Sequence record: MK373784.1 | Length of the DNA: 64,000 nt | Source of the DNA: Escherichia phage vB_EcoM_MM02 | Strand: one strand, 5' to 3' | Shown here: piece after piece, positions 2,415 through 55,016 of the stretch | Layout: each line of letters opens with the position of its first letter | Numbering within the stretch: position 1 is the first letter of the stretch | The notes under the pieces: model-generated | Databases searched by the model: none | What the model saw: only the letters and a program-made list of their open reading frames with translations | What the model was told of the DNA's origin: nothing | Position numbers and translations under genes: made by a program

Positions 2415-3239
2415 ATGATGTTTGGTTATTTTTACAACTCGTCGTTCAGGCGATATATCACAATGATGGGCGATTTGTTTTCAAATATCCAAGTTAACCG
2501 TCAATTGTCTACAGGCAATAAATTAATTAGAGTTCCTATTACGTATGCATCTAAAGAGCACTTTATGATGAAACTTAATAAATGGACCTCTATAAACTCA
2601 CAAGAAGATGTGGCTAAAGTCGAAACTATTCTACCACGTATAAATCTCCAAATGGTAGATTTCGTTTATAACCCAACGTTTAAAACGAATATATTGAATA
2701 ACTCTCTTTTGAGTAAATCGACTAAGGATATTGTAGACCAATACAACCCATCACCAATTAAAATGATTTTTGAACTGAGCATCTTTACTCGTTATGAAGA
2801 TGATATGTTCCAAATCGTTGAGCAAATTATTCCATATTTTCAGCCGCATTTTAATACGACTATGATTGAGCAATATGGGCAGGATATTCCATTTGAAAGG
2901 GATATTAAAGTCGTATGGATGGCAGCAGCAATGGATGAACAAATAGACGGTGATAATTTATCTCGTCGACGTTTAGAGTGGTCATTAACATTTGAAGTAA
3001 ATGGATGGATGTATCCTCCGGTAGGCGCAGCTGAAGGCCTTATTAAAACGACTTATCTTGATTTTCATGCTAATGAACGAGACCTTCAAACAGCCGCCAG
3101 TGTTTTTGAATCAGTTGATACAGAAATTAAACCGAGAGACGTTGAAGCACAAGATTGGAATGGCGAAGTTGAACAAACTTATACTCATGATATTCCAATC
3201 CCGACTCCACCAACCCCTCCTGGTCCTAGAAAACAATAA
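2415..3239 (+). CDS. 15: tail sheath stabiliser / tail completion protein gp15
   Basis: 274 aa; T4 synteny between 14 and 16. Confidence 0.8.
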   Translation: MMFGYFYNSSFRRYITMMGDLFSNIQVNRQLSTGNKLIRVPITYASKEHFMMKLNKWTSINSQEDVAKVETILPRINLQMVDFVYNPTFKTNILNNSLLSKSTKDIVDQYNPSPIKMIFELSIFTRYEDDMFQIVEQIIPYFQPHFNTTMIEQYGQDIPFERDIKVVWMAAAMDEQIDGDNLSRRRLEWSLTFEVNGWMYPPVGAAEGLIKTTYLDFHANERDLQTAASVFESVDTEIKPRDVEAQDWNGEVEQTYTHDIPIPTPPTPPGPRKQ

Positions 3240-3248
3240 GAGGTAAAT

Positions 3249-5565
<2,317 letters not shown>

Positions 5566-11994: not shown

Positions 11995-13563
11995 ATGACT
12001 ACTATCAAAACTAAAGCTCAGCTCGTAGACAAATGGAAAGAACTGCTGGAAGGTGAAGGCCTGCCGGAAATCGCTAATAGCAAGCAGGCTATTATCGCTA
12101 AAATCTTCGAAAACCAGGAAAAAGATTTCGAAGTATCCCCTGAATATAAAGACGAGAAAATCGCTCAGGCATTTGGTTCTTTCTTGACCGAAGCTGAAAT
12201 TGGTGGTGACCATGGTTATAATGCTCAGAACATCGCAGCAGGTCAAACCTCTGGTGCAGTAACCCAAATTGGGCCGGCAGTTATGGGTATGGTTCGTCGT
12301 GCTATTCCTAATCTGATCGCTTTTGATACTTGTGGTGTTCAGCCTATGAACAGCCCGACCGGTCAGGTATTTGCTCTCCGTGCAGTATATGGTAAAGACC
12401 CTATCGCTGCTGGCGCTAAAGAAGCTTTCCATCCGATGTATGCTCCAGATGCGATGTTCTCTGGTCAGGGTGCTGCTAAGAAATTCCCAGCTCTGGCTGC
12501 TGACACTACTACTGTTGTAGGTGATATCTATACTCACTTCTTCCAAGAAACTGGTACTGTATATCTGCAAGCTTCTGCTGTCGTAACACTTGATTCTGGT
12601 GCAACTGATGCAGCTAAATTAGATGCAGAAGTTAAGAAACAAATGGAAGCTGGTGCACTGGTAGAAATCGCTGAAGGTATGGCTACTTCTATCGCTGAAC
12701 TCCAGGAAGGTTTCAACGGTTCTACCGATAACCCATGGAATGAAATGGGCTTCCGTATCGATAAACAAGTTATCGAAGCTAAATCTCGCCAGCTGAAAGC
12801 TGCTTACTCTATCGAATTAGCACAAGACCTCCGTGCAGTACACGGTATGGATGCTGATGCTGAACTGAGCGGTATTCTGGCTACAGAAATTATGCTAGAA
12901 ATCAACCGTGAAGTTGTTGATTGGATTAACTACTCTGCACAGGTTGGTAAATCTGGTATGACCCTGACTCCGGGTTCTAAAGCTGGTGTATTTGACTTCC
13001 AGGACCCGATTGATATCCGTGGTGCTCGTTGGGCCGGTGAAAGCTTTAAATCTCTGTTGTTCCAGATTGATAAAGAAGCAGTTGAAATTGCTCGTCAAAC
13101 CGGTCGTGGTGAAGGTAACTTCATTATCGCTTCCCGTAACGTAGTTAACGTACTGGCTTCAGTTGATACTGGTATTTCTTACGCTGCACAGGGTCTGGCT
13201 TCTGGTTTTAATACCGACACTACTAAGTCTGTATTTGCCGGTGTACTTGGTGGTAAATACCGCGTATACATCGACCAGTATGCTAAACAGGATTACTTCA
13301 CCGTTGGTTACAAAGGCGCTAACGAAATGGATGCAGGTATTTACTATGCTCCTTACGTTGCACTTACCCCGCTGCGTGGTTCCGATCCTAAGAACTTCCA
13401 GCCGGTAATGGGCTTTAAAACTCGTTACGGTATCGGTGTTAACCCGTTTGCTGAAAGTTCCCTGCAGGCTCCAGGTGCTCGCATCCAGTCCGGTATGCCA
13501 TCTATCCTGAACAGCCTTGGTAAGAACGCTTACTTCCGCCGTGTATATGTAAAAGGCATCTAA
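11995..13563 (+). CDS. 23: major capsid protein gp23
   Basis: 522 aa (T4 521); strong terminator hairpin immediately downstream. Confidence 0.95.
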   Translation: MTTIKTKAQLVDKWKELLEGEGLPEIANSKQAIIAKIFENQEKDFEVSPEYKDEKIAQAFGSFLTEAEIGGDHGYNAQNIAAGQTSGAVTQIGPAVMGMVRRAIPNLIAFDTCGVQPMNSPTGQVFALRAVYGKDPIAAGAKEAFHPMYAPDAMFSGQGAAKKFPALAADTTTVVGDIYTHFFQETGTVYLQASAVVTLDSGATDAAKLDAEVKKQMEAGALVEIAEGMATSIAELQEGFNGSTDNPWNEMGFRIDKQVIEAKSRQLKAAYSIELAQDLRAVHGMDADAELSGILATEIMLEINREVVDWINYSAQVGKSGMTLTPGSKAGVFDFQDPIDIRGARWAGESFKSLLFQIDKEAVEIARQTGRGEGNFIIASRNVVNVLASVDTGISYAAQGLASGFNTDTTKSVFAGVLGGKYRVYIDQYAKQDYFTVGYKGANEMDAGIYYAPYVALTPLRGSDPKNFQPVMGFKTRYGIGVNPFAESSLQAPGARIQSGMPSILNSLGKNAYFRRVYVKGI

Positions 13564-13587
13564 TCTTAATTGATTAAATCTTATTTT

Positions 13588-13605
13588 GGGAGACTTCGGT
13601 CTCCC
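13588..13605. terminator. intrinsic terminator between convergent gene 23 and the minus-strand small gene
   Basis: gggagacttcggtctccc followed by T-run. Confidence 0.75.
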
Positions 13606-13615
13606 ATTTTTGGTT

Positions 13616-13885
13616 TTATTTCTGTGCAATTTCGATGTAAGTTTTCAAAATATTTTGCCAATTAGGCATACCTTCTTGGACATATGCCGGAGAACCGTCT
13701 TTGTTTTTGAATGATGCAAGTTTATCAGTGGCCCAATAGCCTTTAGCTCGAGCTTCAGAATCAATTTTCATCCATACTTTGTTGAAGGCATTACCATTAA
13801 CTTTTGCACCATATTTTTCTACTAACTTAACTGCTTCAGCTTCCAGAACTTTTAAAGTATCTCGTAAGAAACGTGCTTTAGTCAT
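13616..13885 (-). CDS. hypothetical small early protein on opposite strand between genes 23 and 24
   Basis: 89-aa ORF with ATG at 13885, GAGGAG ribosome-binding site and canonical early promoter (GTTTAC-18-TACTAT) upstream on minus strand. Confidence 0.6.
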   Translation of the reverse strand: MTKARFLRDTLKVLEAEAVKLVEKYGAKVNGNAFNKVWMKIDSEARAKGYWATDKLASFKNKDGSPAYVQEGMPNWQNILKTYIEIAQK

Positions 13886-13915
13886 TTTGTTTACTCCTCT
13901 GTAGTTGATAAGTCT

Positions 13916-13945
13916 ATAGTATCACATACCAAATACGTTGTAAAC
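13916..13945 (-). promoter_or_regulatory. early promoter (-35 GTTTAC, -10 TACTAT) for the 13616-13885 gene
   Basis: minus-strand GTTTACAACGTATTTGGTATGTGATACTAT. Confidence 0.6.
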
Positions 13946-13951
13946 AATCTT

Positions 13952-13959
13952 TATAAATA
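13952..13959 (+). promoter_or_regulatory. late promoter (TATAAATA) for gene 24
   Basis: Exact TATAAATA 28 nt before gene 24 ATG. Confidence 0.7.
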
Positions 13960-13986: not shown

Positions 13987-15270
13987 ATGAGTAAAATCCA
14001 AAAATTATTGCGTGAATCTACAACGTCTACTAGCAACTCAATCGGTCGCCCAAATCTCGTTGCTTTGACTCGCGCTACGACTAAATTAATATATTCTGAC
14101 ATTGTAGCAACACAAAGAACTAATCAACCTGTTGCTGCTTTTTATGGTATCAAATATCTTAACCCAGATAACGAATTCACATTTAAAACCGGTGCTACTT
14201 ATGCTGGCGAAGTTGGATATGTAGACCGAGAAAAAATTACTGAACTCACAGAAGAATCAAAAGTCACACTAAATAAAGGTGATTTTTTCAAATATAATAA
14301 TATCGTCTATAAAGTGTTAGAAGATACACCATTTGCAGATATTCAAGAAAGTGATCTAGAATTAGCTCTTCAGATTGCAGTCGTTCATTTAAAGGTACGG
14401 TTATTTTCAGATGCAGCGGTAACAAGCAAATTTGAAAGCTCTGATAGCGAAATTTCTGATGCAAGATTCCAGATTAATAAATGGCAAACTTCAGTCAAAT
14501 CTCGTAAACTTAAAACTGGCCTCACGGTTGAATTAGCGCAAGATTTGGAAGCGAATGGATTTGATGCCCCTAACTTCTTAGAAGATTTGCTTGCTACTGA
14601 AATGGCTGATGAAATTAATAAAGATATTCTTCAGTCTTTAATTACTGTATCGAAACGTTATAAAGTTACTGGAATTACTGACACCGGATTTATTGACTTG
14701 AGCTATGCATCCGCTCCAGAAGCAGGTCGTTCATTATATCGAATGGTGTGTGAAATGGTATCACACATTCAAAAAGAGACAACTTATACTGCAACGTTTT
14801 GTGTAGCCTCAGCTCGTGCAGCTGCTATTCTTGCTGCTTCTGGTTGGTTAAAACATAAGCCAGAAGATGACAAGTATCTTTCACAAAATGCTTATGGATT
14901 CTTGGCAAATGGATTACCTCTTTACTGCGATACCAACAGTCCGTTAGATTATGTTATTGTGGGTGTTGTAGAAAATATCGGCGAAAAAGAAATTGTAGGG
15001 TCCATCTTTTATGCTCCATACACTGAAGGAGTAGATTTAGATGACCCGGAACATGTTGGTGCATTTAAAGTTGTAGTTGATCCAGAAAGCTTGCAACCGT
15101 CTATCGGATTATTGGTTAGATATGCTTTATCAGCAAATCCTTACACAGTAGCAAAAGACGAAAAAGAAGCGAGAATAATTGATGGTGGGGACATGGATAA
15201 AATGGCAGGACGTTCAGACTTGTCTGTTTTACTCGGTGTTAAATTGCCTAAAATTATTATAGATGAATAA
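13987..15270 (+). CDS. 24: capsid vertex protein gp24
   Basis: 427 aa as T4 gp24; late promoter at 13952-13959. Confidence 0.92.
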   Translation: MSKIQKLLRESTTSTSNSIGRPNLVALTRATTKLIYSDIVATQRTNQPVAAFYGIKYLNPDNEFTFKTGATYAGEVGYVDREKITELTEESKVTLNKGDFFKYNNIVYKVLEDTPFADIQESDLELALQIAVVHLKVRLFSDAAVTSKFESSDSEISDARFQINKWQTSVKSRKLKTGLTVELAQDLEANGFDAPNFLEDLLATEMADEINKDILQSLITVSKRYKVTGITDTGFIDLSYASAPEAGRSLYRMVCEMVSHIQKETTYTATFCVASARAAAILAASGWLKHKPEDDKYLSQNAYGFLANGLPLYCDTNSPLDYVIVGVVENIGEKEIVGSIFYAPYTEGVDLDDPEHVGAFKVVVDPESLQPSIGLLVRYALSANPYTVAKDEKEARIIDGGDMDKMAGRSDLSVLLGVKLPKIIIDE

Positions 15271-15281
15271 ACAAAAAAAAA

Positions 15282-15297
15282 GGGACCTTACGGTCCC
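15282..15297. terminator. bidirectional terminator between convergent 24 and rnlB
   Basis: gggaccttacggtccc flanked by A-run and T-run. Confidence 0.75.
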
Positions 15298-15304
15298 TTT
15301 TTCG

Positions 15305-16303
15305 TTATGATACTAATTCAATCCATGCAGGACGCAGAACATCTTGCACCATTCGGACTAATTCTTTCTTAACAAGATTCGGATTATCGGATGATGTTAA
15401 TACAATACCTTCACGAGAAGTTTCTTCCAGAATATCTTGAACAGTCAATCCCATCACTTTGCCAAAATCTTTTGGCGTTACAGTCCCAATCTTAGAAATC
15501 ACATTATTAACACGGTTTAATGTAACATAACAAGCTAGGACATCAAGCAAGTTTTTGTCAATTTCGGTTAATGGAACCTGAGTTTTAATAGGCTTATCAG
15601 ACTTTTTCTTTTCACTGAATTTAGAGTTCTTACACTTAATAGCTACACGAGTACCGTTTGGCAGCCATTTAGGGAAACAAGGCTTCAGAACATAACCTTC
15701 TGCCGTATTATCGCCAATAACATTAGCATCAAATACGCAATTATTTGCTTCGACAAGGTCTTCCGATGCCGTGGCGTTATAAGCGGCTAAGACAGAATCA
15801 AGGTCGTTTGGAATCATGATAAGAGCATCAAATGTGCCACGACCAAGCATTGGTGCCATTTTAAAACCGAATTCATTACAGAAATCTTGCATTTCGTAAT
15901 CGGTCAAATACGTATTATCACCACTTTCTGTATTGATAAGGATATCGAACACATAAAAATCTTTTTCACCGTAGTCAACACCTTTCTGGATTCCACCACC
16001 AGCGAATTCACCAAAGACCTGATATGATACAGCTCGAGAACTACCCATTACTTCTTGAACGTTTTTAATAGCTTTATCATACTTCTTGAGTACAATTTCA
16101 TAACCATAAAAATCTTCTGCTGGAAGAATAGGGCCTGTGCGCTTGGCGCATGTGACGTTGTCACGTTCAATTATTAACGAGAAGTTAGTCCCATGGATTT
16201 TCTCACGTGCTACCCAAACACCAGTAGTCAAACCATTAGTGTAGAGTTTTTCAATAAACTTAGAGTTGTAGTGGTTTTCAAGACTGCTGTATTTCTTAAA
16301 CAT
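15305..16303 (-). CDS. rnlB: RNA ligase 2 (Rnl2)
   Basis: 332 aa; N-terminus [16 protein letters not shown] and nucleotidyltransferase motif KIHGTNF match T4 Rnl2. Confidence 0.93.
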
Positions 16304-16674: not shown

Positions 16675-16865
16675 TTCTTCACCTTTTTGTTAATCAAACG
16701 TTTACGGTATACAACTTTTTCTTTTGCTTTAAACTTTGACCGAGCTGTCTCGGCTTTAGTCCATAGTAATCCAACTTCTTTAGGTTGTAAACCAATTTTT
16801 TGAGCAATTTCTACGAATGAAAATCCCGCCTCATGTAATGTATAAACTTCAACTTCAGCTCTCAT
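16671..16865 (-). CDS. hypothetical small protein with helix-turn-helix-like segment and basic tail
   Basis: First ATG at 16865 (track start 16871 is TTG); EAGFSFVEIAQKIGLQPKEVG resembles an HTH; Lys-rich C-terminus. Confidence 0.5.
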   Translation of the reverse strand: MRAEVEVYTLHEAGFSFVEIAQKIGLQPKEVGLLWTKAETARSKFKAKEKVVYRKRLINKKVKK

Positions 16866-29307: not shown

Positions 29308-29337
29308 ATAGTATCACACATCCATGTGTTTGTAAAC
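29308..29337 (-). promoter_or_regulatory. early promoter for the 28985-29278 gene
   Basis: minus-strand GTTTACAAACACATGGATGTGTGATACTAT, then leader CAACAACATGAGGAAA. Confidence 0.6.
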
Positions 29338-36224: not shown

Positions 36225-36254
36225 TATAATAACATAACCTGTACCAAAGTAAAC
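36225..36254 (-). promoter_or_regulatory. early promoter for the 35819-36184 gene, with inverted repeat flanking the -10
   Basis: minus-strand GTTTACTTTGGTACAGGTTATGTTATTAT; palindrome ggtacaggt / acctgtacc. Confidence 0.55.
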
Positions 36255-36669: not shown

Positions 36670-36698
36670 ATAGTAACACATCCTACAGGAGAGTAAAC
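36670..36698 (-). promoter_or_regulatory. early promoter for the 36259-36627 gene
   Basis: minus-strand GTTTACTCTCCTGTAGGATGTGTTACTAT. Confidence 0.55.
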
Positions 36699-40242: not shown

Positions 40243-40272
40243 TGGTAGAGTTATAGTATCACAACTCTACCA
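40243..40272 (-). promoter_or_regulatory. early promoter for the 39988-40224 gene
   Basis: minus-strand GTTTACAACATGGTAGAGTTGTGATACTAT. Confidence 0.55.
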
Positions 40273-40284
40273 TGTTGTAAACCA

Positions 40285-42380: not shown

Positions 42381-42410
42381 ATTATACTCTGCTCCCAAGA
42401 GTTTGTAAAC
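42381..42410 (-). promoter_or_regulatory. early promoter for the 42052-42351 gene
   Basis: minus-strand GTTTACAAACTCTTGGGAGCAGAGTATAAT. Confidence 0.55.
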
Positions 42411-43786: not shown

Positions 43787-43816
43787 ATAGTAACACCATC
43801 CTTGGTGTTTGTAAAC
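43787..43816 (-). promoter_or_regulatory. early promoter for alc
   Basis: minus-strand GTTTACAAACACCAAGGATGGTGTTACTAT, then leader CAACACGAGGAGAAAATT before the ATG. Confidence 0.6.
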
Positions 43817-44969: not shown

Positions 44970-44999
44970 ATTGTACCACAATCCTTGTGGTATGTAAAC
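44970..44999 (-). promoter_or_regulatory. early promoter for rnlA
   Basis: minus-strand GTTTACATACCACAAGGATTGTGGTACAAT. Confidence 0.55.
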
Positions 45000-51688: not shown

Positions 51689-51717
51689 ATACTAACACAT
51701 CCAGGGAAGAAGTAAAC
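51689..51717 (-). promoter_or_regulatory. early promoter for the 51267-51659 gene
   Basis: minus-strand GTTTACTTCTTCCCTGGATGTGTTAGTAT, then leader CAACAACATGAGGAAA. Confidence 0.6.
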
Positions 51718-54986: not shown

Positions 54987-55016
54987 ATAGTAACACACTC
55001 ATTTGAAAGCGTAAAC
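54987..55016 (-). promoter_or_regulatory. early promoter for rnh
   Basis: minus-strand GTTTACGCTTTCAAATGAGTGTGTTACTAT. Confidence 0.55.

What the first reader, a model, noticed from the sequence alone, without database searches (positions are those of the whole stretch)
13616..13950. Small early gene on the opposite strand between late genes 23 and 24
Between the major capsid and vertex genes lies an 89-aa minus-strand ORF with a strong ribosome-binding site and a textbook early promoter (GTTTAC-18-TACTAT), bracketed by a bidirectional terminator and the gene 24 late promoter. I recall this intergenic site holding a homing endonuclease gene (segD) in T4; here it holds an unrelated small protein with no recognisable motif. 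An early gene embedded in a late structural operon in antisense orientation is a plausible spot for an accessory or anti-defence function.
Basis: partly seen in the sequence, partly recalled or inferred. Interest (0 to 1): 0.5.

Follow-up and report, generated by a model that had tools for sequence, protein, structure and literature searches.

The report
Small early phage gene, function unknown
This is a real, conserved 89-amino-acid gene with its own early promoter, sitting backwards between the two main capsid genes of an RB69-like (Mosigvirus) coliphage; it is already annotated as a hypothetical protein in over 100 phage genomes, and nothing found here shows what it does.

Summary
The ORF (13616-13885, minus strand), its GAGGAG ribosome-binding site, the GTTTAC-N18-TACTAT promoter and the gene 24 late promoter are all present as described. 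Only the "bidirectional" terminator fails: it is plus-strand only.

The window is a Mosigvirus. The protein is a full-length member of PHROG 6003 (unknown function). It is about 99% identical to annotated hypothetical proteins in roughly 116 phage records.

Evidence that the gene is real and early:
- pN is far below pS in comparisons with diverged homologues.
- The promoter hexamers are kept across genera while the spacer has diverged.
- All 11 promoters of this type in the window point the same way.
- Nolan et al. (2006) predicted this promoter in RB69.

Most T4-like genera have an empty 83-nt gap at this site, so promoter plus ORF is an inserted cassette. Two deeply diverged alleles move between phage backbones. 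In phage mobillu one allele sits with a segD-like homing endonuclease.

The protein is soluble, basic (pI 9.6) and confidently folded as α-α-β-β-α (pLDDT 94). It has no sequence or fold relative of known function.

Best reading: a dispensable early accessory protein that binds an acidic partner. An anti-defence role is possible but untested. Ordinary for T-even phages; modest interest.

The parts
13616..13885 (-). 89-aa ORF (stop codon included), type A allele of phage family PHROG 6003. Basic (pI 9.6) and soluble, with an α-α-β-β-α fold.
   Evidence: E 3.9e-45, full length; pN << pS; pLDDT 93.9
13894..13899 (-). Shine-Dalgarno GAGGAG, 8 nt upstream of the ATG
   Evidence: GGAG is kept at this position in homologous loci of other genera.
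13916..13945 (-). T4-type early (sigma-70) promoter: -35 GTTTAC 13945-13940, 18-nt spacer, TG 13924-13923, -10 TACTAT 13921-13916. The predicted start site is near 13909.
   Evidence: 11 such sites, all minus strand, 0.58 expected. (hexamers conserved, spacer diverged across genera). (RB69 Pe:109605 predicted by Nolan 2006).
13952..13959 (+). Gene 24 late promoter TATAAATA. Its complement supplies the A/T-rich -41 to -50 region of the divergent early promoter.
   Evidence: RB69 Pl:109573
13587..13616 (+). Gene 23 intrinsic terminator: GGGAGAC-TTCG-GTCTCCC hairpin plus T-tract. It works on the plus strand only. The ORF's stop codon lies in the T-tract.
11995..13563 (+). Gene 23, major capsid protein (left flank of the cassette)
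   Evidence: 94.6% identical to T4 gp23
13987..15270 (+). Gene 24, capsid vertex protein (right flank of the cassette)
   Evidence: 95.3% identical to T4 gp24
15276..15303 (-). Terminator between gene 24 and rnlB, active on the minus strand. It should stop early rnlB transcripts before they reach the ORF, so the ORF needs its own promoter.
   Evidence: (both strands listed for RB69)

Best explanation
A self-contained early-gene cassette (sigma-70 early promoter, strong ribosome-binding site, 89-aa ORF) is inserted backwards between the gene 23 terminator and the gene 24 late promoter.

Shown:
- The ORF is a real protein-coding gene under purifying selection.
- It belongs to a small, phage-only orphan family (PHROG 6003).
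- It carries a promoter of this phage's early class.
- It is absent from most T4-like genera.
- It exists as two deeply diverged alleles that recombine between phage backbones, sometimes alongside a segD-like homing endonuclease.

Inferred:
- Unmodified host RNA polymerase transcribes it in the first minutes of infection.
- It makes a soluble, consistently basic, aromatic-rich α-α-β-β-α protein that binds an acidic partner, either nucleic acid or a host protein.
- It acts as a dispensable host-takeover or counter-defence modulator rather than in capsid assembly.

Separate confidences: about 0.9 for a real early accessory gene, and about 0.35 for the proposed binding mechanism.
For: Real gene:
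- 187 phage records carry it, 185 of them full-length.
- Window versus L009 gives pS 0.67 and pN 0.23. Window versus L011 gives pS 0.82 and pN 0.21. CJ20 versus EAWsc9 gives dN/dS 0.22.
- AF2 pLDDT is 93.9, and all five models score at least 85.

Early expression:
- The promoter matches the window's 11-member, all-minus-strand class.
- GTTTAC-N18-TAnnAT is kept in Mosigvirus, Dhakavirus, Gaprivervirus and two metagenomic lineages, with the spacer diverged.
- Nolan 2006 predicted the same promoter in RB69.
- A minus-strand terminator after rnlB isolates the ORF from upstream transcripts.
- T4 has ATTTAC-N18-TATTAT in the same slot before segD. T4 segD is classed as early RNA, and its protein was detected.

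Accessory and mobile:
- The gap is an empty ~83 nt in Tequatrovirus RB51 and slur04, Moonvirus, Karamvirus, Jiaodavirus, Kanagawavirus and Acj61.
- The RB69 reference copy is frameshifted.
- L009's gp23 and gp24 are 92-94% identical to JS98's, but its ORF is 29.5% identical to JS98's and 62% to the window's.
- Mobillu carries a type B ORF plus a segD-like gene in a Mosigvirus backbone.
- In unrelated ~140-150 kb phages the homologue lies in long arrays of small same-strand ORFs with no Pfam hits on record (only two neighbours in L012 have any).

Basic character:
- pI is 9.2-9.9 and net charge +3 to +8 in 16 of 17 members, despite about 30% identity.
Against: - No transcript, protein or phenotype data exist for this gene.
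- Early timing is inferred from promoter class and from T4 segD, whose early RNA could also come from read-through.
- Positive charge alone does not establish nucleic-acid binding.
Confidence: 0.5

Rival explanations
1. It is specifically an inhibitor of a bacterial anti-phage defence system. It would bind and block a defence protein, or sequester its signal, early in infection.
For: - It is small, early, dispensable and phage-restricted.
- Its alleles are highly divergent inside nearly identical backbones.
- It sits in early accessory arrays in unrelated phages.
- A conserved polar cluster is present (N30-G31-N32, N35, Q70).
Against: - It resembles no solved anti-defence protein.
- It is basic, so it is not an Ocr/Arn-type DNA mimic.
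- No phenotype is known.
- The RB69 reference strain carries a frameshifted copy.
Confidence: 0.2
2. The ORF is tied to homing-endonuclease traffic at this site. The type A cassette would carry the cleavage target of SegD-like enzymes, and the type B allele would be the resistant version that travels with the endonuclease gene.
For: - In mobillu, LF82-16 and AV115 the site has grown from 901 to about 1565 nt and carries a homing endonuclease gene plus a hypothetical ORF. Only mobillu was read in detail.
- In mobillu, a ~930-nt segment running from the ribosome-binding site to the terminator replaces type A. It holds type B plus a GIY-YIG gene 58% identical to T4 SegD, with the ORF stop and the endonuclease start 4 nt apart.
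- T4 and KP27 also carry segD at this site.
Against: - Type B occurs without any endonuclease in JS98, CJ20 and EAWsc9.
- Homologues in non-T4 phages have no endonuclease neighbour.
- Purifying selection on the protein implies a function of its own.
- SegD's target is unknown.
Confidence: 0.1
3. The main function is the early antisense transcript, not the protein. Without a minus-strand terminator, the transcript reads into gene 23 antisense, or its promoter occludes the adjacent gene 24 late promoter.
For: - There is no U-tract after the hairpin on the minus strand.
- The early -35 element lies 6 nt from TATAAATA.
- The promoter slot is kept in T4 with a different cargo.
Against: - Strong protein-level constraint and a confident fold.
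- Most T4-like genera manage with no promoter here at all.
- Gaprivervirus has a terminator-like hairpin with T-runs on both strands (read by eye), which would stop read-through.
Confidence: 0.07
4. It is a capsid-related factor, such as an assembly helper or a minor head or internal protein, linked to genes 23 and 24.
For: - The position between the capsid genes is conserved in three or more genera.
- There is a weak PHROG hit to an 'internal virion protein' (E 0.096).
Against: - It has an early, not a late, promoter.
- It is absent from phages whose gp23 and gp24 are ~95% identical (T4; site contents).
- It lies far from capsid genes in non-T4 phages.
- The PHROG hit is not significant.
Confidence: 0.05

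Closest known systems
PHROG 6003, covering RB69ORF188c/189c, JS98 orf173, CJ20_154 and phi25-307 gp230 (all annotated as hypothetical proteins)
   Same: It aligns over the full length (E 3.9e-45). It occupies the same site, strand and promoter architecture. It is 98.9% identical to the Mosigvirus copies.
   Different: Nothing differs in kind; this is a member of the family. The RB69 reference copy is frameshifted, while the window's copy is intact.
T4 segD locus: a free-standing GIY-YIG homing endonuclease between genes 23 and 24
   Same: The insertion slot, the antisense orientation and the promoter position next to the gene 24 late promoter are the same. T4 segD shows early RNA kinetics.
   Different: The cargo is unrelated (hhalign probability 1.4%). 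It is 89 aa with no GIY-YIG motif, against 223 aa for SegD. In mobillu the two genes sit in tandem.
Other uncharacterised early ORFs of T4-like phages driven by Pe promoters (Nolan et al. 2006, PMC1524935)
   Same: The promoter class and the small size match. The published pattern of novel ORFs co-regulated with early genes also fits, and RB69 Pe:109605 is this very promoter.
   Different: It is isolated inside the late head-gene region rather than in an early-gene cluster.
Small basic early DNA-binding proteins of T4, such as MotB (named from my own knowledge and PMC6070864)
   Same: It is early, non-essential, basic and small.
   Different: No sequence or fold similarity was detected, and DNA binding has not been tested.

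Membership tests
PHROG 6003 (phage orphan family, unknown function) | Full-length, significant match to the family profile | tested here: met
   E 3.9e-45 over residues 1-89 against profile positions 1-90 of 90. The JS98, CJ20 and ABPH49 homologues also match.
PHROG 6003 (phage orphan family, unknown function) | Conserved core residues K3, F6, G31, N32, N35 and Q70, and a length of about 83-93 aa | tested here: met
   Alignments A2 and A3
T4-type early (Pe) promoter | -35 GTTTAC, a 17-18 nt spacer, -10 TAnnAT with an upstream TG/GT-rich stretch, A-rich around -41 to -43, and correct orientation before an ORF | tested here: met
   The features are conserved across genera. Nolan 2006 predicted the site in RB69 with HMM score 29.9.
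T4-type early (Pe) promoter | Transcription within the first minutes of infection, independent of phage proteins | not testable with these tools
   There are only indirect data: T4 segD, in the same slot, is classed as early RNA.
GIY-YIG homing endonuclease (SegD-like) | GIY-YIG catalytic domain, or similarity to SegD | tested here: not met
   hhalign probability 1.4%. No Pfam hit.
Bidirectional intrinsic terminator | A GC-rich hairpin flanked by an A-run upstream and a T-run downstream, so that both strands read a U-tract | tested here: not met
   Only the plus strand has the T-tract. By contrast, the gene 24/rnlB terminator has A and T runs on both sides.
Acidic DNA-mimic anti-restriction proteins (Ocr/Arn type) | A strongly acidic surface | tested here: not met
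   pI 9.62 and net charge +6. Sixteen of the 17 members checked have pI 9.2-9.9 and net charge +3 to +8; P0009 is the exception at pI 8.0, net +1.
Known defence or anti-defence protein families | A significant match to a curated model or a solved structure | tested here: not met
Winged-helix DNA-binding fold | Helix-turn-helix plus a β-hairpin wing, with structural superposition | tested here: inconclusive
   Several of the top Foldseek PDB hits are winged-helix domains (ORC2, DnaD-N and, further down, Cdt1). However, E >= 0.5 and TM is 0.2-0.26, so this is not a match.

The most novel reading that the evidence does not exclude
The protein is the founding member of a new fold class of early phage effectors, for example a counter-defence or host-shutoff factor. 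Its two deeply diverged alleles would be kept by an arms race, and SegD-like homing endonucleases would shuttle them between T-even lineages, so that homing moves a host-range determinant.
Probability: 0.15. Interest if true: 0.6.

Novelty: already known. Interest (0 to 1): 0.3.

Why it matters
As it stands, this is one more uncharacterised early ORF of a T-even phage, already present in databases.

It would matter if the protein proved to be a host-range or counter-defence factor. The locus offers natural contrasts that make a clean genetic test cheap:
- an intact type A allele;
- a frameshifted type A allele (RB69);
- type B alone;
- type B plus an endonuclease;
- an empty site;
- segD alone.

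The comparison also bears on a small open point in T4 biology. A 2010 review reported that no segD promoter could be found. The homologous slot in T4 has a near-consensus early promoter (ATTTAC-N18-TATTAT), and published omics classes segD RNA as early.

Tried and rejected
Searches that gave no function:
- Pfam gave only sub-threshold hits: DUF4859 (17.7 bits against a 22.6 cutoff), Ca_bind_SSO6904 and EcoRI.
- NCBIfam gave nothing meaningful, and PADLOC gave 0 hits.
- PDB sequence search, with the single protein and with a profile, gave best E 0.087 to the RFC1 BRCT domain, judged chance.
- Foldseek on the PDB gave best E 0.54.
- BFVD returned one hit, an 88-aa unnamed viral protein (31% identity), presumably a family member.
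- The afdb50 library was unavailable.
- Rfam gave nothing near its thresholds.

Searches that showed how narrow the family is:
- An exhaustive HMM search of 1.84 billion representatives found 7 proteins.
- A wider profile search found 25 clusters, all about 83-93 aa and standalone.
- An IMG/VR scan found only 9 loci, apparently all on T4-like ~170 kb contigs.

Leads rejected:
- A 655-aa protein with five repeats matches the hairpin region (E 1.7e-5). This is a short local resemblance, not homology.
- P0027 (160 aa) looks like a chimeric 701-nt contig.
- The source names 'NADPH-dependent curcumin reductase CurA' and 'glycosyl hydrolase family 25' are treated as misannotations.
- A derivation from SegD was rejected.

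Literature:
- A search for the locus tags and accession numbers found no paper.

Full report
**What is in the sequence**

The window is from an RB69-like T-even phage (genus Mosigvirus). The local gene order is:
- gene 23, major capsid protein, 11995-13563 (+);
- the candidate ORF, 13616-13885 (-);
- gene 24, vertex protein, 13987-15270 (+);
- rnlB, 15305-16303 (-).

Reading the ORF strand upstream of the ATG, the elements are as follows:
- GAGGAG at 13899-13894, 8 nt before the ATG;
- TACTAT at 13921-13916, preceded by TG;
- an 18-nt spacer;
- GTTTAC at 13945-13940;
- six bases further on, the complement of TATAAATA (13952-13959), which is the gene 24 late promoter.

The gene 23 terminator hairpin (13587-13606) has its T-tract only on the plus strand. 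On the minus strand the hairpin still forms (-15.8 kcal/mol, z -5.1), but AAAAUAAGAUUU follows it. The gene 24/rnlB terminator (15276-15303) does work on the minus strand. It should insulate the ORF from upstream early transcripts, which is why the ORF needs its own promoter.

**Is it more than chance?**

ORF length alone is no evidence here, because spurious antisense ORFs of 156 and 194 aa lie inside gene 23. Three other lines are decisive.

1. The pattern GTTTAC-N17/18-TAnnAT occurs 11 times in the window. All 11 are on the minus strand, against 0.58 expected by chance. Many also share the stretch just upstream of the -10 hexamer (GGATGTGTGATACTAT and close variants). The site at 13916-13945 is a typical member of this phage's early-promoter class.

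2. The protein is found in 187 phage records. About 116 are 95-99% identical, and about 67 are 30-38% identical.

3. Codon comparisons show purifying selection:

| Comparison | pS | pN |
|---|---|---|
| window vs L009 | 0.67 | 0.23 |
| window vs L011 | 0.82 | 0.21 |
| JS98 vs CJ20 | 0.74 | 0.23 |

CJ20 versus EAWsc9 gives dN/dS 0.22.

**Promoter footprint and prior knowledge**

I compared homologous loci from Mosigvirus, Dhakavirus (JS98), Gaprivervirus (CJ20, EAWsc9) and two metagenomic T4-like lineages (L009, L011). All keep the arrangement TATTTATAAA-N4/5-G(T/G)TTAC-N18-TAnnAT-…GGAG-ATG, while the spacer sequence has diverged almost completely.

Nolan et al. 2006 (PMC1524935) already predicted an early promoter at the homologous RB69 position: Pe:109605, minus strand, HMM score 29.9. 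They also listed the late promoter Pl:109573 and a plus-strand-only terminator labelled "23-><-RB69ORF188c". The feature is therefore already in the literature, although the RB69 reference gene is split into ORF188c and ORF189c by frameshifts.

**Comparison across T4-like phages**

The content of the gene 23-24 gap varies between phages:

| Phage (genus) | Content of the gap |
|---|---|
| RB51, slur04 (Tequatrovirus); CF1 (Moonvirus); Ent31 (Karamvirus); KpnM6E1 (Jiaodavirus); PEi26 (Kanagawavirus); Acj61 | About 83 nt: terminator hairpin, T-rich stretch, TATAAATA |
| T4 | segD on the minus strand |
| KP27 | a SegD gene on the plus strand |
| G5211 (Krischvirus) | two small plus-strand ORFs |
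| Mosigvirus, Dhakavirus, Gaprivervirus, L009, L011 | promoter plus PHROG 6003 ORF on the minus strand |

Promoter plus ORF is therefore an inserted cassette, lying exactly between the terminator T-tract and the late promoter.

T4 has ATTTAC-N18-TATTAT at the same distance from its late promoter, directly upstream of segD. A 2010 review stated that no segD promoter could be identified and assumed very low expression (PMC2988022). A 2022 time-resolved omics study classes segD as "early-RNA_middle-Protein" and detects the protein (PMC9697503 supplements). This is indirect support that the conserved slot is an active early promoter. Read-through from upstream cannot be excluded for T4.

**Mosaicism**

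The ORF exists as two deep allele types. Type A is found in Mosigvirus, L009 and L011. Type B is found in Dhakavirus, Gaprivervirus and related metagenomic copies. The two are about 30-37% identical.

The ORF tree conflicts with the flanking genes. L009's gp23 and gp24 are 92-94% identical to JS98's, yet its ORF is 29.5% identical to JS98's and 62% identical to the window's.

In the Mosigvirus mobillu, a ~930-nt segment replaces type A, running from just after the -10 element to the terminator. It carries a JS98-like type B ORF, followed 4 nt later by a GIY-YIG gene 58% identical to T4 SegD. The flanks stay 96-99% identical to the window. LF82-16 and AV115 appear to have the same arrangement, judging by annotation and match geometry.

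The simplest reading is cassette exchange by recombination in the conserved capsid genes, in some cases as co-conversion during endonuclease homing.

In unrelated ~140-150 kb phages (ABPH49, L012, L022, L024), homologues lie in long arrays of small same-strand ORFs with no annotation, the usual look of early accessory regions.

**The protein**

It matches PHROG 6003 (unknown function) over its full length (E 3.9e-45). No Pfam, NCBIfam or PADLOC family and no PDB sequence matches it.

The family is tiny. An exhaustive profile search of 1.84 billion representatives found 7 hits. A broader profile found 25 clusters among 5.8 billion sequences, nearly all standalone proteins of 83-93 aa.

With an 18-sequence alignment, AlphaFold gives mean pLDDT 93.9, and all five models score at least 85. 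The elements are α1 3-25, α2 31-48, β 52-60, β 66-70 and α3 76-88.

The invariant residues are M1, K3, F6, G31, N32, N35 and Q70, with N30 and L14 nearly invariant. The N-G-N motif caps helix 2.

Despite about 30% identity across the family, 16 of 17 members are basic (pI 9.2-9.9, net charge +3 to +8). They are also aromatic-rich, hydrophilic and, in all but one member, free of cysteine. This rules out an acidic DNA-mimic mechanism and suggests an acidic partner such as nucleic acid. That step is inference only.

**Verdict**

The interpretation as an early accessory gene is supported. Anti-defence remains one untested possibility among several.

The gene is an already annotated hypothetical protein, and its promoter was predicted in 2006, so it is not novel as a feature. 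Its function is genuinely unknown, and its fold has no detectable relative among solved structures.

The points with some residual interest are:
- the two-allele mosaicism;
- the tandem arrangement with a SegD-like endonuclease;
- the implication that T4 segD has a recognisable early promoter after all.

Noticed in passing
L008 (T4 NC_000866) 3234-3323, minus strand: T4 has ATTTAC-N18-TATTAT directly upstream of segD, in the same slot as the Mosigvirus early promoter. A 2010 review says no segD promoter could be found. A 2022 omics data set classes segD as early RNA and detects the protein.
   Followed up: partly
L008 (T4) 3222-3233, minus strand: Alignment with the mobillu SegD-like protein (MNYLIYKITN...) suggests that T4 SegD starts at the second ATG (M4, MKYLIY...). 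That moves the GGAG from 2 nt to about 11 nt upstream of the start codon.
   Followed up: no
L034 (Escherichia phage mobillu MN850622) 622-1551: This Mosigvirus carries a JS98-like type B allele of the small ORF, followed 4 nt later by a segD-like GIY-YIG gene on the same strand. The segment replaces type A between the -10 element and the terminator. LF82-16 and AV115 look the same.
   Followed up: yes
L009 (ENA ERZ27245996 k123_278436) 4001-4273 and flanks: A metagenomic T4-like phage has gp23 and gp24 92-94% identical to JS98's, but its small ORF is 62% identical to the Mosigvirus type and 29.5% to JS98's. This is clear mosaicism at the site.
   Followed up: yes
L002 (RB69 NC_004928) 3937-4207: The RB69 reference copy of the gene is broken by frameshifts into ORF189c and ORF188c. 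Either the lab strain has lost the gene or the early sequence contains errors. Truncated 51-64 aa versions also exist, for example mogra_95 and 310Ecol104PP_00148.
   Followed up: partly
window 16763-16792, 29308-29337, 36226-36254, 36670-36698, 40253-40282, 42381-42410, 43787-43816, 44970-44999, 51689-51717, 54987-55016 (all minus strand): Ten further matches to the early-promoter pattern GTTTAC-N17/18-TAnnAT lie on the minus strand, against 0.58 expected for the whole window. Together they form a ready-made early-promoter map of this phage segment.
   Followed up: no
window 15276-15303: The convergent gene 24/rnlB terminator (GAAAAAGGGACC-GTAA-GGTCCCTTTTTT) has A and T runs on both sides and is listed on both strands in RB69. 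This one, not the terminator after gene 23, is the truly bidirectional terminator.
   Followed up: partly
P0006 (JGI name) and L006 3501-3782 (EAWsc9 AJENGE_00050): Homologues of this small protein carry implausible source names: 'NADPH-dependent curcumin reductase CurA' and 'glycosyl hydrolase family 25'. No search supports either, so they are likely annotation errors.
   Followed up: partly
L003 2619-3899 and 1335-2618; L005; L009: Dhakavirus, Gaprivervirus and L009 carry two tandem gene 24 paralogues (24a and 24b). Mosigvirus, T4 and L011 have one.
   Followed up: no
P0013 (655 aa, metagenomic): The family profile matches five repeats of the form '...W(T/A)xEKLAxYNGxNxQPAYIAVNG...' in this protein, over the β-hairpin region (E 1.7e-5). 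It is probably convergent local similarity.
   Followed up: no
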